Shown here piece by piece: positions 8,712 through 28,021 of a DNA stretch of 28,021 nucleotides. Location of the stretch: contig JAVKIJ010000039.1 in assembly GCA_031459535.1 (NCBI GenBank), positions 1 to 28,021 of the forward strand. Reading direction: 5' to 3'. The stretch's first letter is position 1. Every line of letters starts with the position of its first letter. The translations under genes were made by a program, and so were the position numbers. The notes below the pieces were generated by a model, which did no database searches, was not told the DNA's origin, and saw only the letters and a list, made by a program, of their open reading frames with translations. The stretch comes from Candidatus Fervidifonticultor quintus. GTDB taxonomy: Bacteria > Sysuimicrobiota > Sysuimicrobiia > Sysuimicrobiales > Humicultoraceae.

Positions 8712-8724
8712 GATCCCGCGCCTC

Positions 8725-14558: not shown

Positions 14559-14588
14559 CCCCCCACCTCCTCGTGCTCTGCGAGGGCC

Positions 14589-15689
14589 TCAGGCCTCGTC
14601 ACCCATCGCAATGCCCAGCTCGCGGGCGGTCCTGACCAGCGCGCCATCAGGCCGCACGCGTTTGGGCTCAGCAATCCCCTCGGCCATGGGGATGTCTATC
14701 ACGTCAGGGCCGCGGAGCGCGACCATGCGGCCGTGCGCTCCTGCCGCCGCACACTCGACGGCCCGCACGCCGAACCGAGTGGCAAGCAGCCGGTCGAAGG
14801 GCGTCGGGCTTCCCCCGCGCTGGAGATGCCCGAGCACGGTGCACCGGGTCTCGCGCCCGGTGCTCTCGGCCAGGGCGTCCGCCACGCGCTGGCCGATCCC
14901 TCCAAGCCGCGGCAGTTTCCCGGGCGCTGGCGGCTCCTGGTAGACCTGCTCGCCGCCCACGGGCGCGGCGCCCTCGGCGACCACGACGATGGAGAACCGC
15001 CGGCCGCGCGCCGCACGTTCCTCGATGGTCCGGACGACGGCTTCCACGTTGAAGGGAATCTCCGGGATGAGGACGGCGTCCGCGCCACCGGCGATACCGG
15101 ATTCCAGCGCGATCCACCCGGCATTGCGGCCCATGGTCTCGACCACCATGATGCGGTGATGGCTTTCTGCGGTGGTGTGGAGTTTGTCTATGGCCTCGGT
15201 GGCGGTCACCCGGGCGGTGTCGAAGCCGAAGGTGACGTCGGTCCCGGAGATGTCGTTGTCAATGGTTTTGGGGATCCCAATGACTGGCGCGCCCATCCGG
15301 TAGAGCGCATCGGCGATGTGGAGGGTACCGTCGCCGCCGATGATCAGCATGGCATCCAGGTGCAGGGCCTCCAGGCGCTGCAGCACCTCCCGCGAGGCGT
15401 CCACGACCTGCGGCGTGCCGTCGCGAACCACGGGCCAGGCAAACGGATTCCCACGGTTGGTGGTACCAAGGATCGTCCCGCCGTGGGTCAGAATCCCCCG
15501 GACATCGTCGAGGTCCAGGGGCCGCAAGCGGTCGTGCAGCAGGCCGTCGAACCCGTCCTCGACCCCCAGCACTTCCCATCCACTGATACCTACAGCGGAG
15601 AGCACTACGGCGCGGATCACGGCATTCAGGCCCGGGCAGTCTCCCCCGCCGGTCAGGATGCCGATACGCTTGCGCCGGCCTGCGAGCAT
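14589..15689 (-). CDS. pfkA: 6-phosphofructokinase (PfkA family), ATP-type signature
   Basis: LTGGGDCPGLNA, GGTILGTTN, GGDG, PKTIDND, MGR, LGHLQRGG. Confidence 0.93.
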   Translation of the reverse strand: MLAGRRKRIGILTGGGDCPGLNAVIRAVVLSAVGISGWEVLGVEDGFDGLLHDRLRPLDLDDVRGILTHGGTILGTTNRGNPFAWPVVRDGTPQVVDASREVLQRLEALHLDAMLIIGGDGTLHIADALYRMGAPVIGIPKTIDNDISGTDVTFGFDTARVTATEAIDKLHTTAESHHRIMVVETMGRNAGWIALESGIAGGADAVLIPEIPFNVEAVVRTIEERAARGRRFSIVVVAEGAAPVGGEQVYQEPPAPGKLPRLGGIGQRVADALAESTGRETRCTVLGHLQRGGSPTPFDRLLATRFGVRAVECAAAGAHGRMVALRGPDVIDIPMAEGIAEPKRVRPDGALVRTARELGIAMGDEA

Positions 15690-15694
15690 TCACA

Positions 15695-17296
15695 TCACTC
15701 CGTTCTGGGCGCCGCGGCGCGCACCGCGGCTGGCACGTACGGGGCGAACTCCTCGAAGGCCTCGGCGAACATCCGGGCGAGAGCCTTCGTTCGGGCGTCG
15801 AACGCCGCGGCATCCCGCCAGGTGGCCCTGGGCTGCAGGATCTCATCTGGCACGCCTGGCACGCGCTCGGGCACCTCCAAATTGAACACCGGGTCGGGCC
15901 TCCTGGGCACCCGGTCCAGGGCACCTGCGATGGCCGCGCGCACCATGGCCCGCGTGTATGCCAGCCTGATGCGCTCACCTTGGCCGAACGGCCCGCCGGT
16001 CCAGCCGGTGTTGACCAGCCAGACGCTGGCGCCGTGGGCCGTGATGCGCTCGCTCAGCATCTGGGCGTACACGCTGGGCCGCTGGGCCATGAACGGCGCG
16101 CCGAAGCAGGCGCTGAACGTGGCCTGGGGCTCGGTGACCCCTCGCTCCGTTCCCGGGATCTTCGACGTGTAGCCGCACAGGAAGTGGTACATGGCCTGCT
16201 CCGGGGTCAGACGGGCGATGGGCGGCATCACTCCAAAGGCATCCGCCGTCAGGAAAATGATCGCCCGCGGGTGTCCGGCCACGCCGGTGGTCGTGGCGCG
16301 GGGCAGGAAGGTGATCGGATACGCTGCCCGCGTGTTCTCGGTCAGGGTGTCGTCGTCGAGATCGATCCGGCGGCTCTCGGGATCAATGGCGACGTTCTCC
16401 AGCACGGTCCCGAACATGTGGGTGGCCCGGTAGATCTCGGGCTCGCCTTCTGCAGACAAGCGAATCACCTTTGCATAGCAGCCACCCTCGAAGTTGAACA
16501 CGCCATCGGCCGACCAGCCGTGCTCGTCGTCGCCCAACAAGATGCGCTCGGGATCGGTAGACAGCGTGGTCTTGCCGGTGCCGGAGAGCCCAAAGAGCAG
16601 AGCGACATCTCCCCCCGGTCCCACGTTCGCAGAACAGTGCATCGGGAGGACGTCCTGCAGCGGCAGCAGGTAGTTCATGAGCGTGAACACTGACTTCTTG
16701 ATCTCGCCAGCGTACGACGTGCCGCCGATGAGCACCAGCTTCCGGGCCAGGTGCATCAAGATGTAGACCTCACTGCGGGTGCCGTCGGTCTCGGGAATGG
16801 CGTGGAACCGGGGGGTATCGATGATGGTGAATTCAGGGGTGTGTGCGGCCAGCGCCTTGCCGTCGGGCACGATGAACATGGTGCGAGCGAACAGGCTGTG
16901 CCAGGCATACTCGGTGATGACCCGGACGTGCTTCCGGTACCGCGGGTCCGCACCCACGAAGACGTCCTGGACGAACAGCTCCTTGCCCTGGAGGTACGCC
17001 AGCAACCGCCGGTGCAGCCGGTCGAACCCTTCGGGATCGACCGGTTGGTTGTGCCTGCCCCACCAGATGTGGTCCTCGCTGGACGGCTCGCGCACGATGA
17101 ACTTGTCCCGCGGCGAACGCCCGGTGTGATGGCCGGTATGCACCACCAGGGGGCCGCCCGACGCGATCAGCCCCTCCCGGCGCCGGGCCGCGTGCTCGTA
17201 CAGCGCGGGCGGGGTCAGGTTCCACCCCACCATGTCGGCGTGAATCCCGTGCACCTCGAGCCCCACCCGGCTCCGAATGCCTTCCTCAATGACCAT
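15695..17296 (-). CDS. pckA: Phosphoenolpyruvate carboxykinase (ATP)
   Basis: C-terminal 533 aa of the 836-aa [77 protein letters not shown]. Confidence 0.97.
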
Positions 17297-17354
17297 CGTG
17301 CGCCACCCCCGCGCGCAAGAGACCGCTTGGTTTCCCCACTGCCGTACCATATCA

Positions 17355-17383
17355 CCATTCGCCTCCCCCAGCACCTTTCCCCC
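17355..17383 (-). promoter_or_regulatory. Possible alternative-sigma (SigH-like) promoter upstream of pckA
   Basis: Minus strand GGGAAAG-N11-GGC-GAAT resembles the Bacillus SigH consensus AGGAWWW-N11/12-RNNGAAT. Confidence 0.25.
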
Positions 17384-17446
17384 GGGCGCAGGGCGCACGG
17401 GGCATCGTCGCCGAAGGTACGTTGCCAGAAGGGCTCGCGAGGCGAC

Positions 17447-18298
17447 ATGGGGATGATCACGACGAGCTACCATACCCACAGCCGCTACTGTGACGGCAGG
17501 GGCGAGATCGCCGCGTACGCCGACGCGGCGGCCGCCGCCGGGCTGGAAGCCCTGGGCGTCTCCAGCCATTGCCCTCTGCCGTTCCCCGAGCCGTACGCCA
17601 TGCGGGCCGAAGACCTGCCCACCTACTGCCAGGAGGTCACCCGCGTCAAGCAGGCGCATGCCGGCAGGTTGAGGGTGCACCTCTCGCTGGAGATCGACTA
17701 CTTGCCGGAGTACGCCGCCCAGGTGGCGAACATGGTCGCGCCATATCCGTTCGAGTACCTCATCGGGGCGGTACACTTCGTGGGCGTGGATGCCGACGGC
17801 ATCCCGTCTGCTTACGACCTGTCCCGGAAGGGATTCGAGCGCGGGCTGACCGAGTTGTTCGGCGGGGATATCCGCCGCATGGTGGCCGCGTACTATGGGC
17901 GCGTGCGCTCCCTGGCGGAGTGGAACCGCACCGCGATCCTGGGACACCTCGACCGGATCAAGATGTGGAACGCGGGCGACCGGTACTTCGCCGAGACCGA
18001 ACCCTGGTACCGGGGCGAGGTGGAGGCCACCCTCCAAGCGTGTGCGCAGGCGGGCATGATCGTCGAGTTGAACACCTCGGGCTGGCGCCACGCGGTCCGG
18101 GCACCGTACCCGAGCCCGTGGATCCTGCGCCGGTGCCTGGACCTGGACATCCCGCTTGTGGTCACCACCGACGCCCACCATCCCACGCGCGTGACGGAGT
18201 TCCATGCCGAGGCCGCGGCCGTTCTTGAAGACATCGGCTGCACGAAGCTGGCGGTGCTCCGGGACGGGGGCTGGATGCTGGAACCGTTCGTCAGGTAG
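17447..18298 (+). CDS. PHP-family histidinol-phosphatase-like protein (HisJ/HisK type)
   Basis: [42 protein letters not shown] metal-binding motifs. ATG at 17447 or 17453. Confidence 0.87.
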
Positions 18299-19333: not shown

Positions 19334-20701
19334 ATGCACTACCCCTGGTGGTACGTCCCGTTCCTGACGGCGCCGATGCTCATCGCCATCGTCGCCGTCC
19401 TCCACGTCCTCGTGTCGCACTACGCGGTGGGCGGTGGATTGTTCCTGGCTCTGGAGACCCAATACGCCTATCGGGTCAAGAACAGGGCGTACCTCGACTA
19501 TCTGCGGGCTCACGCCTGGTTCTTCATCCTGCTGACGGTGGTCTTCGGCGCGATCAGTGGGGTCGGCATCTGGTGGACCATCGGCCTGGCATCGCCGCTG
19601 GCCACCGAGACGTTGATCCACACCTTCGTCTTCGGCTGGGCGATGGAATACGTCTTCTTCGTGCTGGAAATCGTCTCGGCGTTCATCTTCTACTACTACT
19701 GGGGGCGCCTGCGGCCGCAGACACACGTGCAGATCGGGTGGATCTACGGTGCCTCGGCGTGGATCAGCCTGGTATTGATCACTGGCATCACGGGTTTCAT
19801 GCTGAATCCCGGCGCCTGGCTCCAGCACCGGAGTTTCTGGGTCGGTTTCTTCAACCCTCAGTTCGTCCCCCAGGTGCTGGCGCGCACTGGCGGCGCCTTT
19901 CTGCTGGCCTCGCTCTACGTGTACCTGCACGCGTCCTTCAAGGTGCACGACCCGGCGCTGCGCGACCTGATCGAGAAGCGGTCGGCGCGACCGGCACTGG
20001 CGGGCGCCATCCTGATTCTGTTGGGCGGCGCGGGATGGTACCTGTTCCTTCCGCCGTCGGCGAGAGCGGCGCTGGCGGCCGCCCCCGTGCTGAACGTGCT
20101 GATGGTCCTGATCTTCGCCACCACCATCATCGTCTTCCTCATGCTCTACTTCGGACCGTACCGGAACCCTGGCTGGCTGACACCCGGGTTCGCCATCCTG
20201 TTCTTTGTGTTCGGTGCGACGGCGTTCTCCACCGGCGAGTACATCCGCGAGGCGGTGCGCAAGCCGTACATCGTGTATCAAGTGGTCCTCGGCAATCAGC
20301 TCCTCGCCGAGGAGATGCCCCGGGTGCGGGAGGTCGGCTATCTCGAAGGCGGCGTCTGGACCAAGGCGTTCGTCGCGGCACACTACCCCCACGTCATGAA
20401 CGGCGGCAAGGTGGACCGCGCCAAGCTGCTGGCCCTGCCCGAGGCCGACCAGGTGCGGCTGGGTCGCGTGATCTTCCAGTACGCGTGCAACAACTGCCAC
20501 ACCGAGGTGGCGGGCTACTCGCCCGTCAGCCAGCTCACCAGGGGCTGGAACGCCGACACCATCCGGGCGGCGATTCCGTCACTGGGTGACCTGTCCATCT
20601 TCATGCCGGCCTGGGTCGGCACCCCGGAGGAGGTGGAGCTGCTGACCCGATACCTGGCCACGATCGCAGCGCCGCGTCCCAGGCCGCTGACACCTCCCTA
20701 G
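19334..20701 (+). CDS. Cytochrome bd oxidase subunit I (CydA)-like membrane protein with a C-terminal c-type monoheme domain
   Basis: HVLVSH in TM1, FGAISGVGIW, WAMEYVFFVLE (E99/E107-like), GFMLNP, GEYIREAVRKPY (ExGRQPW-like). C-terminal CNNCH with a downstream MP as candidate distal Met. AGGAGG RBS. Confidence 0.8.
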   Translation: MHYPWWYVPFLTAPMLIAIVAVLHVLVSHYAVGGGLFLALETQYAYRVKNRAYLDYLRAHAWFFILLTVVFGAISGVGIWWTIGLASPLATETLIHTFVFGWAMEYVFFVLEIVSAFIFYYYWGRLRPQTHVQIGWIYGASAWISLVLITGITGFMLNPGAWLQHRSFWVGFFNPQFVPQVLARTGGAFLLASLYVYLHASFKVHDPALRDLIEKRSARPALAGAILILLGGAGWYLFLPPSARAALAAAPVLNVLMVLIFATTIIVFLMLYFGPYRNPGWLTPGFAILFFVFGATAFSTGEYIREAVRKPYIVYQVVLGNQLLAEEMPRVREVGYLEGGVWTKAFVAAHYPHVMNGGKVDRAKLLALPEADQVRLGRVIFQYACNNCHTEVAGYSPVSQLTRGWNADTIRAAIPSLGDLSIFMPAWVGTPEEVELLTRYLATIAAPRPRPLTPP

Positions 20702-20715
20702 ACAGGAGAGGACCC

Positions 20716-21843
20716 ATGGATCCCACACGGTTGATCGGTCCGTCCAGCCCCCTGGGCTTCCCGGCGCCCTACTGGTTCATGGCCGCCCTCAAGGTGCTGG
20801 GCTTCACGCTCCACCTGATCCCCATGGGCCTGTGGTTCGCCGGGATTCTGGTGGCCATGATCGTCTGCCGGCGCGGCGAGCAGCCCCGGCGCTTCGCTCA
20901 CCGCCTCATGACACAGATGCCGGTCATCGTCGCGCTGGGCGTCAACTTCGGGATCGTGCCGCTCCTGTTCATCCAGGTGGCCTACTATCGGGTCTTCTAT
21001 CCCGCGACCATCCTGCTGGCCTGGCCCTGGTTCGCCGTGATCGTCCTGTTGTTGGTGGCCTATTACGGCGTCTACCTCTATGCGCTGGGACTGCGCGAGG
21101 CGATGACGCCCGCGCGCAGCGTTGCTGGATGGGTCGCGGCGGTGCTCTTCGTCGTCATCGGCTTCATCTTCAGCAACGTGTTCTCGCTGATGACGAACCT
21201 GCCGGCCTGGGCGGGGCTCTGGATGCGCGGCAGTGTGGCCGGCGCCACGACCGGCCTGTCCCTGAATGCAGGCGACGCGACCCTGTGGCCCCGGTGGCTG
21301 TTGACCCTCGGCCTGGCGCTGATGACGACCGCCGCCTATGCGGTGGTGGACGCGGGGTTCTTCGCGCGTCGTGAGCCCGAGGCGTACCGGCGCTGGGTCC
21401 GGCGCTTCGCAGGGGGGCTCTATGCGCTGGGCGCCGTCTGGTACGCCGGCGCGTCTGCGTGGTATGTCTTCGGCACGTGGAGTACCGAACTGCGTGCGCT
21501 GATGTCGAGTGGTGGGATGGCAGTCCTCACGGTCCTGACAGCCGTGGCGCCGCTGCTGACGCTGGTGGTGATGCTGGCACAGCGGAACGAGGTCACAGGG
21601 GCGTTGGCCGCGGTCGTGGGCCTGCTCCAGGTCGTCGTCCTGGCGCTGAACGCCATCAGCCGGCAGGTGGTCCAGAACGCCGAGTTGCGGCGCTTCCTGG
21701 ACGTGACCGCTGAGCGCCTCCAGATCCAGTGGAGCCCCCTGGTGCTGTTCCTGCTCCTGTTCGTCGCAGGGCTGGGCGTTGTAGCCTGGATGATCGCCAG
21801 GGCCCTGGAGGCCAGCCGACAGCCGGCTCCCGCACGGCGCTAG
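20716..21843 (+). CDS. Polytopic membrane protein, probable second subunit of the bd-like complex (divergent CydA-fold)
   Basis: About 9 TM segments, TM1 His (FTLHLIPM), GVNFGIVPLLFIQV. Starts 14 nt after the preceding gene with an AGGAGAGG RBS. Confidence 0.6.
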   Translation: MDPTRLIGPSSPLGFPAPYWFMAALKVLGFTLHLIPMGLWFAGILVAMIVCRRGEQPRRFAHRLMTQMPVIVALGVNFGIVPLLFIQVAYYRVFYPATILLAWPWFAVIVLLLVAYYGVYLYALGLREAMTPARSVAGWVAAVLFVVIGFIFSNVFSLMTNLPAWAGLWMRGSVAGATTGLSLNAGDATLWPRWLLTLGLALMTTAAYAVVDAGFFARREPEAYRRWVRRFAGGLYALGAVWYAGASAWYVFGTWSTELRALMSSGGMAVLTVLTAVAPLLTLVVMLAQRNEVTGALAAVVGLLQVVVLALNAISRQVVQNAELRRFLDVTAERLQIQWSPLVLFLLLFVAGLGVVAWMIARALEASRQPAPARR

Positions 21844-21931: not shown

Positions 21932-22576
21932 ATGACGCCCGATCCCTTTGATATCGCTGCGGACCCGCCGGCGCAGCGCATTGCGACCGGCCTGGCCAAG
22001 GTGGGGCTCGCACTCAAGCACCAGGCCTGGCGCCGGGCCGGTCGGCGGGGGCTCTCGCCCACCCAGGCGCAGATCCTGACGACGCTGCGGCCGGCGCCGC
22101 GGGGGATGCGCCTCGGGGAAGTGGCCGAGCGGCTGGCCGTCACGGCCGCCACCGCCAGTGAGGCGGTGGGCGCGCTGGCGCGGAAAGGATTGGTCCGCAA
22201 GGTGCGGCATCCGGCTGATCCCCGGGCACTAGCCCTCCGGCTCACACCGGCGGGTCGTCGGGAGGCCTGCCGCGTCGCCGGCTGGCCCGACGTCCTGCTG
22301 GAGGCCCTGGACGCCCTCGAACCCGAAGAGCAGGCCGTCTTCCTGCGAGGGCTGGTCAGGATGATCCACCTCCTGCAGCAACGGGGACAGATTCCCGTCT
22401 CGCAGATGTGTGTCACATGTCGTTTCTTCCGACCGTACCTGCACCGAGACCCAGAGCGCCCGCACCACTGCGCGTTCGTCGACGCACCCTTTGGCGACCG
22501 TCATCTGCGGCTGGACTGCCCCGATCACCAGCCGGCAGTCCCACAACACCTCGAGATGAGGAGGTCGGGCACATGA
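21932..22576 (+). CDS. MarR-family regulator with a C-terminal 4-Cys metal-binding domain
   Basis: GLSPTQAQIL, LAVTAATASEAVGALARKGLV, DPRALALRLTPAG (MarR wHTH). C-terminal C-x2-C-x16-C-x15-C with flanking His. Confidence 0.88.
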   Translation: MTPDPFDIAADPPAQRIATGLAKVGLALKHQAWRRAGRRGLSPTQAQILTTLRPAPRGMRLGEVAERLAVTAATASEAVGALARKGLVRKVRHPADPRALALRLTPAGRREACRVAGWPDVLLEALDALEPEEQAVFLRGLVRMIHLLQQRGQIPVSQMCVTCRFFRPYLHRDPERPHHCAFVDAPFGDRHLRLDCPDHQPAVPQHLEMRRSGT

Positions 22577-23163
22577 GTCAGCAGACCATCCCAGGCTACA
22601 CGTACGGCACCGCCCAGGTGGCCCCATCACCGGTGACGTCAGAGGACCTGGCGCGCCTCAAGCAGAGCGTCCTGTTCACCGCGGACGACGAGCGCTACCT
22701 GCGCATGGCCGGCGATGTGCTCGCCGACCAGGTGGAGGAGATCCTGGATCTGTGGTACGGGTTCGTCGGATCGCACGCGCACCTGGTCTACTACTTCACC
22801 GCCCCCGACGGCCAGCCCGATGCTGCCTATCTTGCGGCCGTTCGGCGGCGGTTCGGCCAGTGGATTCTCGATACCTGTCGGCGTCCCTACGATCAGGACT
22901 GGCTGAACTATCAGCACGAGATCGGCCTGCGCCACCACCGGGCCAAGAAGAACCAAACCGACGGCGTGCGCTCGGTCCCCCACATCGGCCTGCGGTACCT
23001 GGTCGCCTTCATCTACCCCATCACGGCCACCATCAAGCCGTTCCTGGCCAAGCGGGGCCACAGCGCCGACGAGGTGGAGAAGATGTACCAGGCGTGGTTC
23101 AAGTCGGTGGTGTTGCAGGTCGCGCTGTGGAGCCGCGCGTACGTCAGCGGGGACGACTGGTAG
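22573..23163 (+). CDS. Protoglobin
   Basis: 196 aa from an ATG overlapping the marR stop (ATGA). IPGYTYG..SPV, ILDLWYGFV, RRFGQWILDT, YDQDWLNYQHEIGLRHHRAKKNQTD, IKPFLA, AWFKSV, all characteristic of protoglobins. Confidence 0.93.
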   Translation: MSQQTIPGYTYGTAQVAPSPVTSEDLARLKQSVLFTADDERYLRMAGDVLADQVEEILDLWYGFVGSHAHLVYYFTAPDGQPDAAYLAAVRRRFGQWILDTCRRPYDQDWLNYQHEIGLRHHRAKKNQTDGVRSVPHIGLRYLVAFIYPITATIKPFLAKRGHSADEVEKMYQAWFKSVVLQVALWSRAYVSGDDW

Positions 23164-23166
23164 TCC

Positions 23167-24045
23167 CTAGGGGCGCGGGGCGAACTCCACTGGCCACCAC
23201 GTGAGGGTGACGCTCTTCTGTCCGTTGCGCTGACGCTGGTGGCCGTCCCACACCGCGACGTTGAGCAGGGTTCGTGACCCCACTGCAAACCGCACGTCGG
23301 CTTCGTCGGAGGTGACCAGCGGCCGGGCCATCACCACCGTCCACCGCCCGCTCCTCCACGCGCCGAAGCCGATCACGTCCTGGTGCGGTTGCGTGGTGAC
23401 GGTGCCGAAGCCCCAGGCAACCAGGTCTTCCACGGCGCTGGTGCGCCGCGGGCGGGAGAGCAGGTTGCCCGCCGCCACGCCGGCGTTGAACCCCTCCCGA
23501 TCCCTGGCCGTCTTCGCCAGTTGCACGTCGTAGTAGTAGTCGACGAACATGTGGGGATAGACGGCCCGCAGGTCCCGGCCGCGCGTCACCTCGTCCTGCC
23601 AGGCGGCCTTCCACTGCCAGATGTTCACCGGCCGGTTCCGATCGCCCATGAGCGGGCTCGCGAGTGGTGGAGCCGTGCTCATGGGGAACTGCAGGGCCAC
23701 GGCGTCCGTGAATCCGGCTGGCCCCAACGGACCCCGGTCCGGCGTGGCGTCCGCCCAGGTGAGCTCGAAGTACGCCATCCGACCGTCGTGCAGCGCACGT
23801 ACCCGGATCTCCTTGACGGTCCCTCCGCCGAACGGTTTGATGAGGGTCTGCGCGACCAGAGGGATGGCACGCGGCGTCGCCTGACGGAACGCCGCGTCAG
23901 CGGCCCCGGGATCCAGCGGCACCTTGGATGCGGTGAAGGCGGCGACGATCGGCGGCTGCTGCGGCTGTCCCACTGCCATGACCACCGTCAAGCCCAGCAC
24001 CAGGAATGCCGTCAGGCCTCCTGCGGCAAGCCGGCGAACGTTCAT
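23167..24045 (-). CDS. nxrC: Type II DMSO-reductase-family heme-b gamma subunit (NxrC/EbdC-like, periplasmic)
   Basis: Signal peptide MNVRRLAAGG..; WADAT, FTDAVALQFP, PLMGD (Met ligand), PVNIWQWKA, GFGTVT, GRWTVVMARPL, AVWDG..RNGQKS (Lys ligand). ATG overlaps the upstream stop. Confidence 0.82.
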   Translation of the reverse strand: MNVRRLAAGGLTAFLVLGLTVVMAVGQPQQPPIVAAFTASKVPLDPGAADAAFRQATPRAIPLVAQTLIKPFGGGTVKEIRVRALHDGRMAYFELTWADATPDRGPLGPAGFTDAVALQFPMSTAPPLASPLMGDRNRPVNIWQWKAAWQDEVTRGRDLRAVYPHMFVDYYYDVQLAKTARDREGFNAGVAAGNLLSRPRRTSAVEDLVAWGFGTVTTQPHQDVIGFGAWRSGRWTVVMARPLVTSDEADVRFAVGSRTLLNVAVWDGHQRQRNGQKSVTLTWWPVEFAPRP

Positions 24046-24989
24046 AGTCGGCCCCCGATCTCCACGGTCACCTCGTACCCTTCCACGCACCGCTCGCACG
24101 CGCCCAGCGCCGCAGTCCATCCCGGGAAGTCGATGCTGATGCGGGCCGCCACGACCTCGGGGATGGCCGCGGCCCAGGTGTACGTGGGAAATCCACACAA
24201 CGGGCACGGAGCCCCCAAGACCGGCGCAGAGTGTTCCTGCCCCCTCGCCGCCGTCAGGGCCGGCACCCCGGCCCACGCAGCCAGGGCCTGCCAGTGACGC
24301 GCGTACTCCACGAGCGCGTCGTACGTCGGGCGCTGTCCGTCCCACAGGCGCCCGACCACCAGTGGAGCGAGGTCCCGGGGACACTCGGGAAACAGTCGGC
24401 GAAAGGCTTCGCACCGCTCGTCGCGTTCGGCCAGTGGTGCGCGGCCCGCCCTGGCCGTTCGGCCGTCTACCACACAGTCCCACAAGAGCCCGAAGCGTTC
24501 ACCCCCAAGACGCCCCAGGGCCCGGCCCGGTAGCGGAGTCACGCTGTGCCCATATCCAAACGCCGGGTCGAGCATGTCGGCCACATGGCCCAGCTCGTGA
24601 TCCAGCCATCGCGACAGATCCGGCGATCCGAACCGCTCGGCCATGATGCGAATCCCCAGGGTAGCGTGATCGGGGCTGATATCGGCTCCCTCTTCGCCCG
24701 CATGCCAGGCACGCGCCACCATCACCACCTCGAACGGGCGCGCCAGACGCTCGAGGGCCTCGACGATGGCTCGGTCGCAACCCAACTCCTCGAAGAATCG
24801 GGCGTGTAGCGCGACGAAGGCGGCGCGCCGCAGGCGTGGGTCGTCGAACCGACGGTAGACCGCGTCGGCCTCGCGCCGGTACCGTTCGCGCACCGATGCA
24901 TCGCCGCCACGGGCGCGGTCGCGCATCTCTTGCAGGATCACGGCTTCCTGCAGGTCGGGCGCGAAGCGCAGGGACGGCTGTGGCGTCAT
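24042..24989 (-). CDS. Hypothetical protein with an HExxH zincin motif and a C-terminal CxxC...CxxC finger
   Basis: WLDHELGHVADMLDPAFGY; CPLCGFPT ... GACERCVE. ATGA overlaps with both neighbours inside the nxr operon. Confidence 0.8.
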   Translation of the reverse strand: MTPQPSLRFAPDLQEAVILQEMRDRARGGDASVRERYRREADAVYRRFDDPRLRRAAFVALHARFFEELGCDRAIVEALERLARPFEVVMVARAWHAGEEGADISPDHATLGIRIMAERFGSPDLSRWLDHELGHVADMLDPAFGYGHSVTPLPGRALGRLGGERFGLLWDCVVDGRTARAGRAPLAERDERCEAFRRLFPECPRDLAPLVVGRLWDGQRPTYDALVEYARHWQALAAWAGVPALTAARGQEHSAPVLGAPCPLCGFPTYTWAAAIPEVVAARISIDFPGWTAALGACERCVEGYEVTVEIGGRL

Positions 24990-25738
24990 GGTGGCGGGGC
25001 TATCGGGCACCCGTCTGCGCCGCAGACGGGGTGTGCGGCATCAGGGAGCTCCGCGTCCGGTGACGGGAGCAGATCCGGATCGCCGAGCGGGCTGGCGCCG
25101 ACGGCGGCCGCGTCGGCCGCAACCCACGCCGCCAGCGCCGCGGCCAGAGCCCTGTACGGGTCACCGGCCGTGTTGCCCACCAGGCGGCTGAGGGCCGGGA
25201 CCCAACGGCCGAGGTGGTCGCGCAGAAACGCCCGCTGGGCGTCCGCCAGCAGGGCGACGTGGTCCGGGCCGTGGTGCTGACGCGCGTACGCCTCACGGTA
25301 GGCGAGGACGTGCATGAACTCCAGTTCGAGGCTGATGTGATCGGGCCGCTCACGCACCGCGTCGCCCACCTGCAGGCCGAACGCCCGGTAGAAGCCTGCC
25401 ACATCGGCCAGGCACTGGGCCTGGGGGAAGATCCCGCCCGGCACGTACTGCGCCTCGTACAGCGGGCAGTCGCCGCCCACGCGGTGCCCGAAGACACGAT
25501 AGTACTCGGCGCGCAGCGCGTCGCCCCCCGTCTCCGCGCACGCCCGTCCGAGGGCCTCCAGCGCGGCGGCCGCGTCCTGGGACGCGCTCCGAGCCGCCTG
25601 CGCCACGGTCTGCCACTGCGCCGGGTCAATGGCCAGCAGGCTTTCGTCCGGCGGCCGCATGGCCGTCGAGAGAAATCGGTAGACGAGGCTGCGCCTCAGC
25701 GCGTGTGCTATGACTTCGGCCTGCTCGACCGCCTGCAT
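24986..25738 (-). CDS. TorD/DmsD/NarJ-family molybdoenzyme maturation chaperone
   Basis: RSLVYRFLS, EYYRVFG, CPLYEAQY, DVAGFYRAFG, ERPDHISLELEFM, QRAFLRDHLGRW. Confidence 0.92.
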   Translation of the reverse strand: MQAVEQAEVIAHALRRSLVYRFLSTAMRPPDESLLAIDPAQWQTVAQAARSASQDAAAALEALGRACAETGGDALRAEYYRVFGHRVGGDCPLYEAQYVPGGIFPQAQCLADVAGFYRAFGLQVGDAVRERPDHISLELEFMHVLAYREAYARQHHGPDHVALLADAQRAFLRDHLGRWVPALSRLVGNTAGDPYRALAAALAAWVAADAAAVGASPLGDPDLLPSPDAELPDAAHPVCGADGCPIAPPP

Positions 25739-25752
25739 GGATGACCCCACGG

Positions 25753-27006
25753 TCAGATGGTGTTCAGGTGCTGGCGCGGTCGGATAAAGACTGGCTCCTC
25801 GACTGTCAGCCGTACGACTTCCTTGCCTGCGCGATCCAGCCCGATCACCGTGTCGTTGAACATCTCCCACTTTCTACCGCGGATCGTGGTCTCGAACACC
25901 TTCCGGCCGGGCTCGATCCGGTACTGAAAGATGAGCCGCTGCGTCGTCCGGAACAGCTGGAGGACGGCCAGCAGCTCCCGCGACGGTGCCGTGTAGGCGG
26001 CAATGGCATCATCCACCCCGGGGCCGAACATCTGCCGCAGGTACGGGCGTGGTACCCAGCGGGGCGGAATGTAGTACACGTTGGGTTGCGTGCCGAACTG
26101 CGGGTACATCGGCAGGGCGACCTTGGCCACCTGCACCAGGAAGTAGAGAGGATGGTAGCGGTCCTCAGTCCACTGGCCATCGGCCCCGATGCGGACCAGC
26201 CCCTGGAGCCGGATCTTGCCGACGCAGGCGGCCATGCACCGCGTCTCGATGGGCACACCGGGGTACAGCGGGTCGCGCCCCTCGATGCGGGGGTAACAGG
26301 CGATACACTTCTCACTGACCCGGGTGTACGCGTTGAACATGGGCTTCTTGTACGGGCAGGCCTCCACGCACTTCCGGTAGCCGCGGCACCGCTTCTGGTC
26401 GATCAGGACGATGCCGTCTTCGGGCCGTTTGTAGATGGCATTGCGGGGGCAGGCGGCCAGGCAGGCCGGATAGGTGCAGTGGTTGCAGATGCGCTGCAGG
26501 TGGAAGAACCATGTGCGGTGCTCCGGCAGCTGCTCCCCGGTCGGGTGGTAGGTGCCCGGCGCCACCGGATAGGCGGTCGGCGTGTCCTCATAGATGTTGG
26601 GCGCGCGCCACTCACCGTCGGCGGGCAGGTAGCCCAGCACCTCCTCACCGCCAGCCGCGGCCTCGAACAGCGTCTTGCCCTGGAAGACCCCGTAGGGGGC
26701 CCGTCGTCCGTCCCGCCCGGCGAGCGTCCAGGTCTGGCCGCCGGGGTTGGCTTGCTCCAACAGCTCCAGGGTCCTGACATCCCAGAACTGGGGATAGCCC
26801 CCGTAGGGCTTGGTTTCCACGTTGTTCCACCACATGTACTCCTGGCCGCGCGCGTGGGTCCAGGTGCTCTTGCAGGCCATGGTGCAGGTCTGGCAGCCGA
26901 TGCAACGGTTGATGTTGAAGACGGCGGCGAACTGTTCGCGGGGATGGCGCTCCTGGAAGCGGTAGGCCATCTTGCGGCCGAGCTGCCAGTTGTAGACCTC
27001 AGGCAT
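25753..27006 (-). CDS. nxrB: Nitrite oxidoreductase / nitrate reductase beta (Fe-S) subunit, Nitrospira/anammox type
   Basis: N-terminus MPEVYNWQLGRKM..VFNINRC..QEYMWWNNVETKPYGGYPQF closely resembles Nitrospira NxrB as I recall it. Four Cys groups: CIGCQTCTMAC, CNHCTYPACLAACP, CRGYRKCVEACP, CIAC..CMAAC. Also PQFGTQPN.YYIPPRW. Confidence 0.92.
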   Translation of the reverse strand: MPEVYNWQLGRKMAYRFQERHPREQFAAVFNINRCIGCQTCTMACKSTWTHARGQEYMWWNNVETKPYGGYPQFWDVRTLELLEQANPGGQTWTLAGRDGRRAPYGVFQGKTLFEAAAGGEEVLGYLPADGEWRAPNIYEDTPTAYPVAPGTYHPTGEQLPEHRTWFFHLQRICNHCTYPACLAACPRNAIYKRPEDGIVLIDQKRCRGYRKCVEACPYKKPMFNAYTRVSEKCIACYPRIEGRDPLYPGVPIETRCMAACVGKIRLQGLVRIGADGQWTEDRYHPLYFLVQVAKVALPMYPQFGTQPNVYYIPPRWVPRPYLRQMFGPGVDDAIAAYTAPSRELLAVLQLFRTTQRLIFQYRIEPGRKVFETTIRGRKWEMFNDTVIGLDRAGKEVVRLTVEEPVFIRPRQHLNTI

Positions 27007-27301
27007 GCCCCTCGCCTCCTGCACGGTCGCCCACCGCTGTCACTGTCCACACCCCCCACGACGCCGCGACCTCGGCGATCAGCGCCGCGACGGCCTCCTC
27101 CCCGCGGGCCCGGTAGATCCCATGAAGAGCCCGGTAGAACGGGTTGCGGAAGAGCGCCAGCAGCCGCACCTCGTCCCAGCCGGCCCGGAGGTACTCTTCC
27201 ACCAGGCAGCGCGCCATCTCGTCGGCGGCGGCCGCGTCGGCGTCCCCCACCACGCCCACCAGCGCCATCGGATCGTCCGGCTCGAAGCTCTTGGTCGCCA
27301 C
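26999..27301 (-). CDS. Small hypothetical protein (100 aa) between nxrA and nxrB
   Basis: GTG 3 nt after the nxrA stop; its stop overlaps the nxrB start. Protein-like sequence EPDDPMALVGV..EMARCLVEEYLRAGW..LFRNPFYRALH. Confidence 0.75.
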   Translation of the reverse strand: MATKSFEPDDPMALVGVVGDADAAAADEMARCLVEEYLRAGWDEVRLLALFRNPFYRALHGIYRARGEEAVAALIAEVAASWGVWTVTAVGDRAGGEGHA

Positions 27302-27304
27302 TGT

Positions 27305-28021
27305 TCAACCCTTCTTGATCTGGACCAGCGCTCCAGCCAGATAGCGCTTCATGAAGCCGCGCTCACGGCCGGGAGTGTTGCCGGTCTGCGCTGGCTCCCA
27401 CAGCCCGCGGCTGCCCAGGCCGCCGTCCTCCGCCTTGGTGATCCTCACCAGGGTCTCCTTGGGGACGGTGTTGACCGCGTGGTTGTCGGCCTCGCCGCCG
27501 AAGATGAACGCCATGGTCGCCTTGGACTTGTGGAAGAGGGTGTCGGTCTGGTGCATCGGCATGTGCCAGTTGCGGGTGACGGACTGCTGGCTGCCGTACC
27601 GGAAGTTGGCCTGGTAGCCGGTGTCCTCGGACTGGGCCAGACCGTCGCGCCGGGTCTCGTGGGCCCGCACCGACTTCTCGGTGGCGATGAACGGCGCGTG
27701 CTTCATCATCACCACGTTGTACGGGTAGGCCGGGTTATACCTGGCCCGCACCATGCAGCGGGCCACGCGGTAGAAGGGATCGTTGGGCTTCCAGCCCAGA
27801 TACGGACGGTCGGCGGCGTAGGCGTCCACGTAGACGTAGTCACCGTCGTTGATGCCCAAATCTCGCGCGGCCTGTGGGTTGATGTGGAGCTGGTGCTCCC
27901 CCACGCCGGGAGCCCGCTTGTCCAGCCGGTAGGGATCTGCGAAGTTGGAGTCCCAGATCAGGTTCCAGTCGGTGCTGCTCCACGAGGAGTGCACGCGGTG
28001 GCGCGTCTTGGGCGTCAGGCA
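27305..28021 (-). CDS. nxrA: Nitrite oxidoreductase alpha (Mo-bisPGD) subunit, C-terminal fragment
   Basis: Open to the window edge: CLTPKTRHRVHSSW, NFADPYRLDKRAPGVGE, INPQAARDLGINDGDYV, GYQANFRYGSQQSVTR, PMHQTDTLFHK, GGEADNHAVNTVPKETLVRITKAEDGG. This matches the C-terminus of Nitrospira/anammox-type NxrA as recalled. Confidence 0.9.
   Translation of the reverse strand, partial: CLTPKTRHRVHSSWSSTDWNLIWDSNFADPYRLDKRAPGVGEHQLHINPQAARDLGINDGDYVYVDAYAADRPYLGWKPNDPFYRVARCMVRARYNPAYPYNVVMMKHAPFIATEKSVRAHETRRDGLAQSEDTGYQANFRYGSQQSVTRNWHMPMHQTDTLFHKSKATMAFIFGGEADNHAVNTVPKETLVRITKAEDGGLGSRGLWEPAQTGNTPGRERGFMKRYLAGALVQIKKG

What the first reader, a model, noticed from the sequence alone, without database searches (positions are those of the whole stretch)
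23167..28021. Periplasmic Nitrospira/anammox-type NXR operon in an apparently non-canonical, high-GC host
Seen: a tightly coupled minus-strand operon alpha - 100 aa hypothetical - beta - chaperone - HExxH protein - secreted heme-b gamma. Known: the NxrA C-terminus and NxrB N-terminus match the Nitrospira/Nitrospina/anammox NXR clade rather than NarGH or Nitrobacter NXR, and the EbdC-like gamma with a signal peptide implies a periplasmic enzyme. Inference: the neighbourhood (peptide and osmolyte ABC transporters, amino-acid catabolism, protoglobin, high GC) does not look like a classical nitrifier or anammox bacterium. This may be an unrecognised nitrite oxidiser, or a mixotroph using NXR as a nitrate reductase. 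The direction of catalysis cannot be read from sequence.
Basis: partly seen in the sequence, partly recalled or inferred. Interest (0 to 1): 0.8.

Follow-up and report, generated by a model that had tools for sequence, protein, structure and literature searches.

The report
Periplasmic nitrite oxidoreductase operon in Sysuimicrobiota
This is a real, complete gene cluster for the nitrite/nitrate enzyme NXR of the Nitrospina/anammox type, sitting in a hot-spring bacterium of the uncultured phylum Sysuimicrobiota (CSP1-3), where its presence has already been published, and which way the enzyme runs in the cell is still unknown.

Summary
On the minus strand of 23167-28021 lie six tightly coupled genes: nxrA (3' end only, cut by the contig end), a conserved 100-aa ORF, nxrB, a TorD/NarJ-type chaperone, an HExxH/Cys4 protein and a secreted haem-b NxrC. 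The rest of nxrA, with a twin-arginine signal, is on contig C67, which overlaps the window end by 309 nt. All three subunits match the solved Kuenenia NXR far better than Pcr, Ebd or Nar. The cofactor ligands named for the Kuenenia enzyme are conserved. NxrA and NxrB trees place it inside the clade that holds Nitrospinota and Brocadiaceae. The host is no known nitrifier or anammox lineage. By RpoB (92% to Ca. Fervidifonticultor sextus) it belongs to Humicultoraceae, phylum Sysuimicrobiota. A 2024 paper already reports periplasmic-type NxrA in this family and proposes nitrite oxidation, so the finding is real but not new. The genome also holds CODH/ACS, an aa3-type oxidase operon and nrfHA, with no NarG or NapA over cut-off. 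Either direction of catalysis is therefore feasible. The operon is patchy in the family (7 of 24 relatives searched). The two accessory ORFs occur with this NXR type in all seven relatives that carry it.

The parts
27305..28021 (-). nxrA, last 238 codons (molybdopterin catalytic subunit). The first 1036 codons, including the Tat signal, lie on contig C67:1-3108 (minus strand), which overlaps the window end by 309 nt.
   Evidence: 7b04_B (Kuenenia NXR-A) E 9e-117 was the only PDB hit at E<=0.001. The C67 part scores 1582 bits against 7b04_B, versus 206 for PcrA, 178 for EbdA and 137 for NarG. The overlap has 3 mismatches in 309 nt.
26999..27301 (-). Conserved 100-aa cytoplasmic ORF between nxrA and nxrB; small four-helix protein of unknown function.
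   Evidence: No Pfam or NCBIfam family. Homologues sit between nxrA and nxrB in 44 of 80 related loci. The 33-row alignment A1 has a conserved DPMELVGV...EMARCLVEE core. AF2 mean pLDDT is 80.8, with no PDB fold match. It occurs in exactly the 7 of 40 relatives that carry this NXR type.
25753..27006 (-). nxrB, iron-sulfur subunit (417 aa from the ATG at 27006; a GTG at 27024 is also open).
   Evidence: 7b04_A (Kuenenia NXR-B) E 2e-181 at 607 bits, versus PcrB 209, EbdB 204 and NarH 178. Fer4_11 and related families match. The database form is 417 aa.
24986..25738 (-). TorD/NarJ-type molybdoenzyme assembly chaperone.
   Evidence: PF02613, E 5e-25. TIGR03482, the type II DMSO reductase chaperone model, scores 94.6 bits, below its cut-off of 152.3.
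24042..24989 (-). HExxHxxD plus C-terminal CPLC...CxxC protein (315 aa from the ATG at 24989), a cytoplasmic accessory gene of this NXR type. It is probably the 'putative zinc finger' protein of the conserved NXR gene set.
   Evidence: No Pfam or NCBIfam family. It has 18 homologues beside nxr genes in 80 loci, including Brocadiaceae and Nitrospinota. Invariant residues are H138 E139 H142 D145 C269 C272 C305 C308. AF2 pLDDT is 89.2. Fold matches are weak and zincin-like only. The Atlas returns only hypothetical-protein clusters.
23167..24045 (-). nxrC, secreted or N-terminally anchored haem-b subunit (EbdC-like).
   Evidence: PF09459, E 2.5e-32. 7b04_C E 1e-53 versus EbdC 2e-16. The haem ligands Met and Lys of Kuenenia NXR-C (M155, K305; PMC8387239) align with M133 and K277. 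The N-terminus MNVRRLAAGGLTAFLVLGLTVVMAVG is hydrophobic.

Best explanation
The locus encodes a genuine NXR-ABC of the Nitrospira/Nitrospina/anammox ('periplasmic') type in a hot-spring Sysuimicrobiota (CSP1-3) bacterium of the Ca. Fervidifonticultor group (Humicultoraceae).

How it most likely works, with the basis for each step:
- Assembly. NxrA receives Mo-bis-MGD and the FS0 cluster in the cytoplasm with the help of the TorD-like chaperone. This is inferred from the family.
- Export. NxrA pairs with the signal-less NxrB and is exported folded by the Tat system through its RRREFL signal. The motif is shown; the export is inferred.
- Third subunit. It joins NxrC, which is exported separately and carries a Met/Lys-ligated haem b. 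The ligands are shown by alignment.
- Catalysis. On the outer face of the membrane the enzyme interconverts nitrite and nitrate. It exchanges electrons through the NxrC haem with a carrier that has not been identified here.
- Accessory ORFs. The 100-aa ORF and the HExxH/Cys4 protein are cytoplasmic. They are inherited together with this NXR type and probably act in its maturation (inferred from synteny and co-occurrence only).

The operon looks vertically inherited within Humicultoraceae, with losses. It behaves as an optional respiratory module, not the core metabolism.

Direction is not resolved. My split is:
- about 45% nitrate reductase under anoxia, feeding nitrite to NrfHA;
- about 35% supplementary nitrite oxidation to the aa3-type oxidase;
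- the rest both or neither.

The confidence given is for the identity of the enzyme and of the host, not for a direction.
For: Identity of the enzyme:
- Scores against Kuenenia NXR A, B and C are 1582, 607 and 186 bits. The next best solved relatives score 206, 209 and 63 bits.
- The residues named for KsNXR in PMC8387239 (passages) are FS0 C67/D71/C75/C115, substrate Asn70 and Mo ligand Asp275. They align with C89/D93/C97/C137, N92 and D297 of the NxrA encoded on C67.
- In the NxrA tree (48 rows) the window is sister to Ca. F. sextus (98). It sits in a 6-row Sysuimicrobiota clade (100). That clade lies inside a 38-row clade (100) with Nitrospinota and Brocadiaceae. A second, distant type and E. 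coli NarG fall outside.
- The NxrB tree (60 rows) agrees.

Host:
- Own RpoB is 92%, 90%, 86% and 84% identical to the genomes of Ca. F. sextus, Ca. F. secundus, the CSP1-3 MAG and an 'Armatimonadota' MAG. Against a Dehalococcoidia genome it gives only pieces at 53-81%.
- NCBI places Fervidifonticultor in Humicultoraceae, Sysuimicrobiota.
- The contig's bd-like gene is 73-75% identical in 4 of the 5 same-genus genomes and matches a fragment at 87% in the fifth, which argues against misbinning.

Vertical inheritance:
- NxrA identities of 90%, 87%, 85% and 83% to the same four genomes track RpoB.
- Operon GC equals genome GC.

Optional module:
- This NXR type was found in 7 of the 24 same-family relatives searched and in 1 of the 5 same-genus relatives.

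Both directions are feasible in the own genome:
- It has a cox operon (CtaA/B, COX2, COX1, COX3) and acsB.
- It has nrfA (Pfam E 2e-142) followed by nrfH.
- No NarG or NapA match exceeds its cut-off.
Against: - No Nitrospira sequence could be put in the trees, so 'Nitrospira-type' rests on Kuenenia, Brocadiaceae and Nitrospinota rows and on the papers' statements.
- Both trees are quick searches with LG+G4, not careful ones.
- nxrA is split over two contigs with 3 mismatches in the overlap. The joined gene is therefore an inference, and the MAG is 88.85% complete with 5.24% contamination.
- The NCBIfam type II DMSO reductase models score below their cut-offs for beta, chaperone and gamma.
- No electron partner is identified. 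The neighbouring bd-like/cytochrome c gene is not co-distributed with NXR among relatives. It has no match in the five Nitrospinaceae, Nitrospinales, Nitrospina, Brocadiaceae and Planctomycetota genomes searched.
- Expression is not shown. Contigs of one RNA-labelled run cover the operon, but equally all 30 bins of the 20 kb laid.
- The role of the two accessory ORFs rests on synteny alone.
Confidence: 0.85

Rival explanations
1. The organism is a true chemolithoautotrophic nitrite oxidiser. NXR would feed electrons from nitrite to the aa3-type oxidase for energy and, by reverse flow, to CO2 fixation by the Wood-Ljungdahl or reductive glycine pathway. That would make Sysuimicrobiota a further phylum with nitrite oxidisers.
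For: - All characterised members of this NXR clade named in the papers read serve nitrite oxidation in vivo, in Nitrospira, Nitrospina and anammox bacteria (PMC8387239 and PMC3578206, passages).
- The Met/Lys haem ligation, which the Kuenenia paper links to a high potential, is conserved.
- A cox operon and acsB are present.
- PMC11604079 proposes nitrite oxidation for this family.
Against: - The operon is patchy: 7 of 24 family relatives and 1 of 5 genus relatives searched. That is unlike a core energy metabolism.
- Only one nxrAB copy was found.
- CODH/ACS points to an anaerobic lifestyle, and the published enrichments of this group were anaerobic with H2 or sulfide as the proposed donors (PMC11604079, passages).
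- No nitrite-dependent growth or activity is reported in the passages read.
Confidence: 0.2
2. NXR works only as a periplasmic nitrate reductase. Under anoxia it would reduce nitrate with electrons from H2, sulfide or organic donors, and NrfHA would then reduce the nitrite to ammonium (DNRA).
For: - Kuenenia NXR reduces nitrate about 25 times faster than it oxidises nitrite in vitro: 1.5 umol versus 61 nmol per min per mg (PMC8387239, passage).
- No NarG or NapA exceeds its cut-off in the own genome, so NXR is the only candidate nitrate reductase found.
- nrfA plus nrfH are present.
- The family is described as facultatively anaerobic with hydrogenases and sqr (PMC11604079, passages).
- The patchy distribution is typical of accessory respiratory modules. 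The comparison is my inference.
Against: - nrfA is in all 6 genus genomes, while this NXR type is in only 2 of them including the own one, so the two are not linked.
- No quinol-oxidising partner for NXR is identified.
- No known organism is shown, in the passages I read, to use this NXR clade solely as a nitrate reductase.
Confidence: 0.3
3. The enzyme is an NXR look-alike acting on another substrate (for example chlorate, selenate or an organic compound), as other type II DMSO reductase family members do.
For: - NCBIfam type II models match below their cut-offs.
- The clade holds many MAG sequences from lineages with no known nitrite oxidation.
- Activity is untested.
Against: - The Asn proposed to coordinate substrate (N70 in Kuenenia, Ile in EbdA according to the legend read) is conserved. 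So are the Mo-ligand Asp and the unusual 3Cys/1Asp FS0 site.
- NxrA is 64% identical to a Brocadiaceae NxrA. The Kuenenia paper's legend gives about 60% between Kuenenia and NOB homologues.
- Scores to Pcr and Ebd are about eight times lower than to Kuenenia NXR.
Confidence: 0.05
4. The contig is misbinned or chimeric, and the NXR belongs to another community member.
For: - MAG contamination is 5.24%.
- DNA depth over 26031-28021 is 2 to 8 times the rest of the window in three runs, so other community members carry near-identical nxrAB.
- The contig breaks inside nxrA.
Against: - Other genes of the same contig have their best matches in the same genus: the bd-like gene at 73-75% in 4 of 5 genus genomes, plus a fragment at 87% in the fifth.
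- NxrA and NxrB are nearest to Ca. F. sextus, as is RpoB.
- The same six-gene operon is present in six related Sysuimicrobiota-group loci.
- GC is uniform.
Confidence: 0.03

Closest known systems
Kuenenia stuttgartiensis NXR-ABC (PDB 7B04; PMC8387239)
   Same: - The three subunits share architecture and strong sequence matches: 1582, 607 and 186 bits.
- NxrA has a Tat signal.
- The FS0 ligands (3 Cys plus 1 Asp), the substrate Asn, the Mo-ligand Asp and the Met/Lys haem b ligands are all conserved.
- A TorD-like chaperone and an HExxH/Cys4 homologue sit in the Brocadiaceae loci too.
   Different: - The gene order differs. Brocadiaceae locus L073 reads C-B-chaperone-HExxH-A.
- No homologue of the 100-aa ORF was found in Brocadiaceae loci.
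- No NXR-T, cytochrome c or cupredoxin genes were seen beside the operon here.
- The host is not a planctomycete and has no anammoxosome.
NXR operons of Ca. Fervidifonticultor sextus and secundus and other Sysuimicrobiota (CSP1-3) MAGs (PMC11604079)
   Same: - The six-gene order is identical: A, 100-aa ORF, B, chaperone, HExxH, C (L014-L018 and L023).
- NxrA is 83-90% and NxrB 83-89% identical.
- They form the same clade in both trees.
- RpoB is 84-92% identical.
   Different: - Flanking genes are not shared. No protoglobin, MarR or bd-like homologue was found within 8 kb in those loci. tblastx of C67:3000-14000 against all 80 related loci gave no hit at E 1e-10 in the six Sysuimicrobiota-group loci whose results were examined.
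- It is probably a different species from Ca. F. sextus (RpoB 92%).
Nitrospina / Nitrospira periplasmic NXR (PMC3578206)
   Same: - It is in the same clade as the Nitrospinota rows: NxrB 63-64%, NxrA 57-58% identical.
- NxrC is soluble or signal-anchored and EbdC-like.
- The conserved accessory set described for Kuenenia, Nitrospira and Nitrospina includes a TorD-like chaperone and a 'putative zinc finger' protein (passage).
   Different: - Those organisms are obligate or main nitrite oxidisers with duplicated nxr operons. Here there is a single copy with a patchy distribution.
- No Nitrospira sequence was available to me for direct comparison.
Respiratory nitrate reductase NarGHI, and Nitrobacter-type cytoplasmic NXR
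   Same: It belongs to the same superfamily (Mo-bis-MGD alpha, 4-cluster beta) and shares the Asp Mo ligand.
   Different: - The Tat signal and the EbdC-like gamma replace a membrane NarI.
- FS0 is 3Cys/1Asp where solved NAR has 3Cys/1His.
- NarG scores 137 bits versus 1582, and NarH 178 versus 607.
- TIGR01580 scores far below its cut-off.
- E. coli NarG and NarH root the trees on long branches.
A second, distant NXR-like type in relatives (possibly the Nitrotoga-type periplasmic clade; that label is my inference from identity levels, not tested)
   Same: It is a type II enzyme with alpha, beta, EbdC-like gamma and a chaperone. It is present in same-genus genomes G007 and G008 and in all 4 genomes of family f5 searched.
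   Different: - Alpha is only 43-44% and beta 49-50% identical by tblastn.
- The order is A-B-C-chaperone.
- It has no 100-aa ORF and no HExxH gene.
- It branches outside the clade holding the window.

Membership tests
Periplasmic NXR of the Nitrospira/Nitrospina/anammox type | Catalytic NxrA is closest to known members of the clade, not to Nar, Ebd or Pcr. | tested here: met
   It scores 1582 bits to Kuenenia NXR-A, versus 206 for PcrA, 178 for EbdA and 137 for NarG. In the tree it sits inside the clade with Nitrospinota and Brocadiaceae. No Nitrospira row was available.
Periplasmic NXR of the Nitrospira/Nitrospina/anammox type | Twin-arginine signal on NxrA (extracytoplasmic active site). 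| tested here: met
   RRREFL lies at residues 27-32 of the NxrA N-terminus on contig C67. It aligns with the Kuenenia N-terminus. No signal-peptide predictor was run.
Periplasmic NXR of the Nitrospira/Nitrospina/anammox type | FS0 ligands C/D/C/C, substrate Asn and Mo-ligand Asp, as in KsNXR-A (C67, D71, C75, C115, N70, D275). | tested here: met
   C89, D93, C97, C137, N92 and D297 align with them. The residue list comes from PMC8387239 passages.
Periplasmic NXR of the Nitrospira/Nitrospina/anammox type | NxrB with four Fe-S clusters, closest to NXR-B. | tested here: met
   It scores 607 bits to 7b04_A over residues 9-423, versus 209, 204 and 178 for PcrB, EbdB and NarH. Cys motifs are listed.
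Periplasmic NXR of the Nitrospira/Nitrospina/anammox type | EbdC-like haem-b NxrC with an export signal and Met/Lys ligands. | tested here: met
   PF09459 matches. 7b04_C gives E 1e-53. M133 and K277 align with M155 and K305. The N-terminus is hydrophobic. Cleavage versus anchoring was not tested.
Periplasmic NXR of the Nitrospira/Nitrospina/anammox type | Nitrite-oxidising (and nitrate-reducing) activity. | not testable with these tools
   This needs enzyme or tracer assays.
Nitrite-oxidising bacterium (physiological guild) | Terminal oxidase able to take electrons from nitrite, and a CO2-fixation pathway. | tested here: inconclusive
   One cox operon is present, as is acsB. No RuBisCO was found in a genome that is 88.85% complete. 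Neither shows coupling to NXR.
Nitrite-oxidising bacterium (physiological guild) | Growth or energy gain from nitrite. | not testable with these tools
   There is no culture. The RNA-run contigs are uninformative.
Membrane-bound respiratory nitrate reductase NarGHI | Cytoplasmic NarG without a Tat signal, a NarI membrane subunit, and a score over the narG model's cut-off. | tested here: not met
   NxrA has a Tat motif. The gamma subunit is EbdC-like, not NarI. The best TIGR01580 piece scores 60 bits against a cut-off of 1084.
Sysuimicrobiota (CSP1-3), family Humicultoraceae, genus Ca. Fervidifonticultor (host) | Marker-gene closeness to named members. | tested here: met
   RpoB is 92% and 90% identical to Ca. 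F. sextus and Ca. F. secundus and 86% to the CSP1-3 MAG. The lineage is from NCBI taxonomy. Only one marker was compared, and no GTDB-Tk run was possible.

The most novel reading that the evidence does not exclude
Humicultoraceae that carry this operon are thermophilic nitrite oxidisers in a phylum with no cultured member. They would couple a periplasmic NXR to Wood-Ljungdahl or reductive-glycine autotrophy, much as anammox bacteria couple theirs to the acetyl-CoA pathway. The HExxH/Cys4 protein and the 100-aa ORF would then be dedicated, still uncharacterised maturation factors of this NXR type.
Probability: 0.2. Interest if true: 0.7.

Novelty: already known. Interest (0 to 1): 0.3.

Why it matters
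Nitrite oxidation is the main known biological source of nitrate, and few lineages are shown to perform it. NXR-like operons in uncultured phyla could hide further nitrite oxidisers. They could equally be reversible nitrate reductases that blur gene-based nitrogen-cycle budgets.

For this locus the lineage-level observation and the hypothesis are already in print. What this check adds:
- it assigns the window to that lineage;
- it shows the operon is complete once contig C67 is joined, and that the cofactor ligands are intact;
- it shows the operon is patchy within the family;
- it shows the genome also holds nrfHA and an aa3-type oxidase, so gene content does not decide direction;
- it shows two unnamed accessory genes travel with this NXR type among the relatives searched, which makes them candidates for a maturation role.

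Tried and rejected
- **bd-like CydA/cytochrome c gene as NXR partner (19334-20701).** Rejected as evidence. It is in 13 of 41 genomes, including several without NXR, and was not found in 4 of the 7 relatives with NXR. It has no match at E<=0.001 in the five Nitrospinaceae, Nitrospinales, Nitrospina, Brocadiaceae and Planctomycetota genomes searched (which had no positive control). No homologue lies within 8 kb of nxr in the 80 loci.
- **Expression.** One RNA-labelled run holds 49% of the operon's sampled words. Its contigs cover all 30 bins of the 20 kb laid at low depth, so it shows nothing specific.
- **Synteny to prove the C72-C67 join.** tblastx of C67:3000-14000 against all 80 related loci (the six Sysuimicrobiota-group loci were the ones examined) gave no hits in those six at E 1e-10. 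The regions upstream of nxrA differ, so the join rests on the 309-nt overlap alone.
- **Fold searches for the 100-aa ORF.** Foldseek against the PDB gave nothing at E<=0.001.
- **Fold searches for the HExxH protein.** Foldseek's best E was 0.38, and the list holds many zinc peptidases. VIA-align wide reached at most Z 6.3, on helical pieces, with Wss1 and aminopeptidase rows at Z 4.8-4.9. No fold is assigned.
- My first tblastn table used a wrong frame for the C67 NxrA, so the first column is invalid. It was redone.
- **Nitrospira NxrA or NxrB for the trees.** None came among the 80 loci or the 120 listed proteins.
- **NirK, NirS and RuBisCO.** No NirK exceeded its cut-off. No NirS and no RuBisCO were found. 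The genome is 88.85% complete, so this is 'not found', not 'absent'.

Full report
**What is there.** The window is a whole contig, C72, of a 3.12-Mb assembly with 138 contigs and 68.7% GC. The assembly is 88.85% complete with 5.24% contamination.

The minus strand of 23167-28021 carries six ORFs in a row:
- the last 238 codons of a molybdopterin alpha subunit, open at the contig end;
- a 100-aa ORF;
- a 4-cluster ferredoxin beta subunit;
- a TorD/NarJ-type chaperone (PF02613, E 5e-25);
- a 315-322-aa ORF with HExxH and no family;
- an EB_dh haem-b gamma subunit (PF09459, E 2.5e-32).

The genes are translationally coupled. There are 3 nt between nxrA and the 100-aa ORF. The 100-aa ORF and nxrB overlap by 8 nt. 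ATGA overlaps sit at chaperone/HExxH and at HExxH/nxrC.

**The missing part of nxrA.** A search of the own genome with the type II alpha model found a 1060-codon open frame at the start of contig C67.
- Its last 103 residues are identical to the window's first 103 alpha residues.
- The DNA overlap is 309 nt with 3 mismatches.
- Only one nxrB and one nxrA N-terminus were found in the genome.

The simplest reading is one nxrA broken by the assembler. In three DNA runs that hold the stretch, summed contig depth over 26031-28021 is 2 to 8 times that of the rest of the window. In run X1, for example, it is 124-443 against about 34-65. Near-identical nxrAB of other community members probably caused the break. 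This is inference, and a bridge was not shown.

The upstream part of the C67 frame starts MNERDG... and carries RRREFL at residues 27-32, a twin-arginine motif. It aligns with the N-terminus of Kuenenia NXR-A.

**What enzyme it is.** Scores against all solved structures:

| Subunit | Kuenenia NXR (7B04) | Next best solved relatives |
|---|---|---|
| NxrA (C67 part) | 1582 bits | PcrA 206, EbdA 178, NarG 137 |
| NxrA (window's 238 residues) | E 9e-117, the only hit at E<=0.001 | none |
| NxrB | 607 bits | PcrB 209, EbdB 204, NarH 178 |
| NxrC | 186 bits | EbdC 63 |

The Kuenenia paper (PMC8387239; passages read) names these residues:
- FS0 ligands C67, D71, C75 and C115;
- substrate-coordinating N70;
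- Mo ligand D275;
- NxrC haem ligands M155 and K305.

In the printed alignments they correspond to C89, D93, C97, C137, N92 and D297 of NxrA, and to M133 and K277 of NxrC. All are conserved.

The NCBIfam type II DMSO reductase models match beta, chaperone and gamma below their curated cut-offs. That fits a clade those models were not built on.

**Trees.** From the 80 related loci of named genomes I cut NxrA and NxrB by tblastn. I added three loci of a second, distant type from relatives and E. coli NarG/NarH as root.

NxrA tree:
- It has 48 rows. I left out 14 of 62 as near-duplicates, mostly Nitrospinales.
- It is a quick IQ-TREE search with LG+G4.
- The window's protein is sister to Ca. Fervidifonticultor sextus (SH-aLRT 98).
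- It sits in a 6-row clade (100) inside a 38-row clade (100) that also holds Nitrospinota and Brocadiaceae rows.
- The second type and NarG lie outside.

NxrB tree:
- It has 60 of 82 rows.
- The same 6-row clade appears (100), inside a 56-row clade (96) with Brocadiaceae and Nitrospinota.

Limits: both are quick trees, and no Nitrospira row could be obtained. By tblastn, NxrA is 64% identical to a Brocadiaceae NxrA and 57-58% to Nitrospinales. The Kuenenia paper's legend gives about 60% between Kuenenia and NOB homologues, about 40% to Nitrotoga and Hydrogenobaculum, and about 20% to Nitrobacter-type enzymes, NAR and EbdA.

**Who the host is.** The nearest NxrB loci come from these MAGs:
- Ca. 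Fervidifonticultor sextus, 89%;
- Ca. F. secundus, 86%;
- an 'Armatimonadota' MAG, 86%;
- 'Armatimonadetes bacterium CSP1-3', 83%.

To separate host from gene, I searched those genomes with the own RpoB from contig C11. Identities were 92%, 90%, 84% and 86%, in the order listed above. A Dehalococcoidia genome gave only pieces at 53-81%. NCBI taxonomy puts Ca. Fervidifonticultor in Ca. Humicultoraceae, Ca. Sysuimicrobiota.

Another gene of the same contig, the bd-like gene, is 73-75% identical in 4 of the 5 same-genus genomes and matches a fragment at 87% in the fifth. That argues against misbinning.

The host is therefore neither a known nitrite oxidiser nor an anammox lineage. The runs that hold the stretch are labelled hot springs metagenome.

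**Is it new?** No. PMC11604079 (Natl Sci Rev 2024; passages read) analysed 112 CSP1-3 MAGs and named the phylum Sysuimicrobiota. It states three things:
- MAGs of all families except one carry NxrAB/NarGHI genes.

Homologues of this NXR type are also very common in MAGs. There were 6986 proteins at E<=1e-20 among the 8000 candidates scored. Named loci come from Chloroflexota, Pseudomonadota, Methylomirabilota, Poribacteria, Ignavibacteriota and others. [quoted passage not shown]

**Distribution and inheritance.** I searched 40 relatives.
- NxrB of this type (75-89% identical) was found in 7, all in the own family. That is 7 of the 24 family members searched and 1 of the 5 same-genus genomes.
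- A second type was found in 6 others: 2 same-genus genomes and all 4 of family f5. Its beta is 56-58% identical in that search and 49-50% by tblastn; its alpha is 43-44%. Its order is A-B-C-chaperone.

NxrA identities to four named relatives (90%, 87%, 85%, 83%) track their RpoB identities (92%, 90%, 86%, 84%). Operon GC equals genome GC. I read this as vertical descent with losses inside Humicultoraceae. It is an inference from four points.

Flanks are not conserved. None of the window's downstream genes, and nothing upstream of nxrA on C67, recurs beside the operon in the six closest loci.

**The two unnamed ORFs.** Both are real genes tied to this NXR type.

The 100-aa ORF:
- It has homologues between nxrA and nxrB in 44 of the 80 loci. 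These include Pseudomonadota, Chloroflexota, Ignavibacteriota and two loci labelled Nitrospinota (L044, L047).
- None was found in the Nitrospina-like group (NxrB 63-64%) or in Brocadiaceae loci.
- The alignment has a conserved core.
- The AF2 model is a small four-helix domain with pLDDT 80.8. It has no PDB match.

The HExxH protein:
- It has homologues in 18 of the 80 loci. These include Brocadiaceae (directly after the chaperone), Nitrospinota, Poribacteria, Methylomirabilota and a Dehalococcoidia MAG.
- In an alignment of 17 of these homologues plus the window's copy (one locus, L031, was dropped), H138, E139, H142, D145 and four C-terminal cysteines (CPLC...CxxC) are invariant.
- The model is confident (pLDDT 89.2), but fold searches gave only weak, zincin-like rows.
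- The Atlas shows only 'hypothetical protein' clusters without a Pfam family.

Profiles of both were run over the same 40 relatives. The 100-aa ORF hit exactly the seven genomes with this NXR type. The HExxH protein hit the same seven plus one partial match, G043. Neither hit a genome that has only the second type.

Lücker et al. 2013 (PMC3578206; passage) list a gene set conserved in Kuenenia, Nitrospira and Nitrospina. Besides NxrABC it includes a TorD-like chaperone, 'one putative zinc finger' protein and a bd-like oxidase. The HExxH/Cys4 protein is probably that zinc-finger protein. This is my inference. A full-text search for 'nitrite oxidoreductase' plus 'HEXXH' found no paper.

**Direction of catalysis.** This cannot be read from sequence, and Kuenenia NXR runs both ways in vitro. 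Gene content of the own genome leaves both ways open.

| Gene or pathway | Result in own genome |
|---|---|
| cox operon (CtaA/B fusion, COX2, COX1, two COX3) | present on C83 |
| acsB of CODH/ACS | present |
| nrfA (Pfam Cytochrom_C552, E 2e-142) followed by a NapC/NirT-type nrfH | present on C61 |
| NarG, NapA | no match over cut-off |
| NirK | no match over cut-off |
| NirS | not found |
| RuBisCO | not found |

So NXR is the only candidate nitrate reductase found, and NrfHA could take its nitrite to ammonium. Equally, an oxidase exists for nitrite-derived electrons. nrfA is in all 6 genus genomes, whether or not they have NXR, so it is not linked to NXR.

The patchy distribution, the single copy and the anaerobic, H2- or sulfide-based picture of the family in PMC11604079 make me lean slightly to an optional module used mainly as a nitrate reductase (about 45%). 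Supplementary nitrite oxidation gets about 35%. A true lithoautotrophic nitrite oxidiser gets about 20%.

**Verdict.** The enzyme assignment and the 'non-canonical host' are supported. The claim of an unrecognised case is not, because the lineage-level finding and the hypothesis are published. Interest is low to moderate. What is left open is experimental: the direction of catalysis, the electron partner, and the role of the two accessory proteins.

Noticed in passing
window 19334-21843 (+): A 455-aa protein has a weak N-terminal cytochrome bd subunit I match (PF01654, positions 5-222 of 418) fused to a C-terminal cytochrome c domain (PF13442). A 375-aa ORF with no family follows it. It is the only bd-like gene found in the genome. 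It is present in 13 of 41 genomes searched but is not co-distributed with NXR. It has no match in five Nitrospinaceae, Brocadiaceae and Planctomycetota genomes. Function unknown.
   Followed up: partly
window 21932-23163 (+): A MarR-family regulator and a protoglobin gene (PF11563, E 3e-36) converge on the end of nxrC. Only 3 nt lie between the protoglobin stop and the nxrC stop. This pairing is not conserved beside the operon in the six closest loci.
   Followed up: partly
relatives G007, G008 (same genus) and G033, G038, G041, G044 (family f5); loci L096-L098: These genomes carry a second, distant NXR-like type II enzyme. Its alpha is 43-44% and its beta 49-50% identical to the window's, and its order is A-B-C-chaperone. 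It has neither the 100-aa ORF nor the HExxH gene, and it branches outside the window's clade together with a 'Nitrospinae bacterium RIFCSPLOWO2' NxrA. It may be the Nitrotoga-type periplasmic clade; this was not tested.
   Followed up: partly
G000 contig C61:28707-30473 (locus L116:3208-4974): nrfA (Pfam Cytochrom_C552, E 2e-142) is followed by a 147-aa NapC/NirT-type tetrahaem nrfH. This points to ammonifying nitrite reduction. nrfA-like genes are in all 6 genus genomes searched.
   Followed up: partly
window 13533-18205 (-): Two adjacent phosphofructokinase paralogues (341 and 366 aa) lie next to a PEP carboxykinase. The PEPCK open frame is 836 aa, but the PEPCK_ATP domain starts only at residue 326. 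The real start is probably far downstream of the first start codon.
   Followed up: no
window 26031-28021 and contig C67:1-309: Summed contig depth in three DNA runs is 2 to 8 times the window's background over nxrB 5' / 100-aa ORF / nxrA. The two contig ends also differ at 3 of 309 positions. Several close strains or species with near-identical nxrAB appear to share the sample.
   Followed up: partly
locus G021 (contigs C283, C400, C416): One family relative has three nxrB-like pieces at 87%, 67% and 82% identity and three copies of the 100-aa ORF. This suggests more than one operon of this type, or a mixed bin.
   Followed up: no
window 7665-10257 (-): A PALP-dependent enzyme and a D-glutamate cyclase-like protein (PF14336) sit directly next to, on the same strand as, an Opp-type peptide ABC system (SBP_bac_5 plus two permeases). 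This looks like a possible peptide or D-amino-acid utilisation cluster.
   Followed up: no
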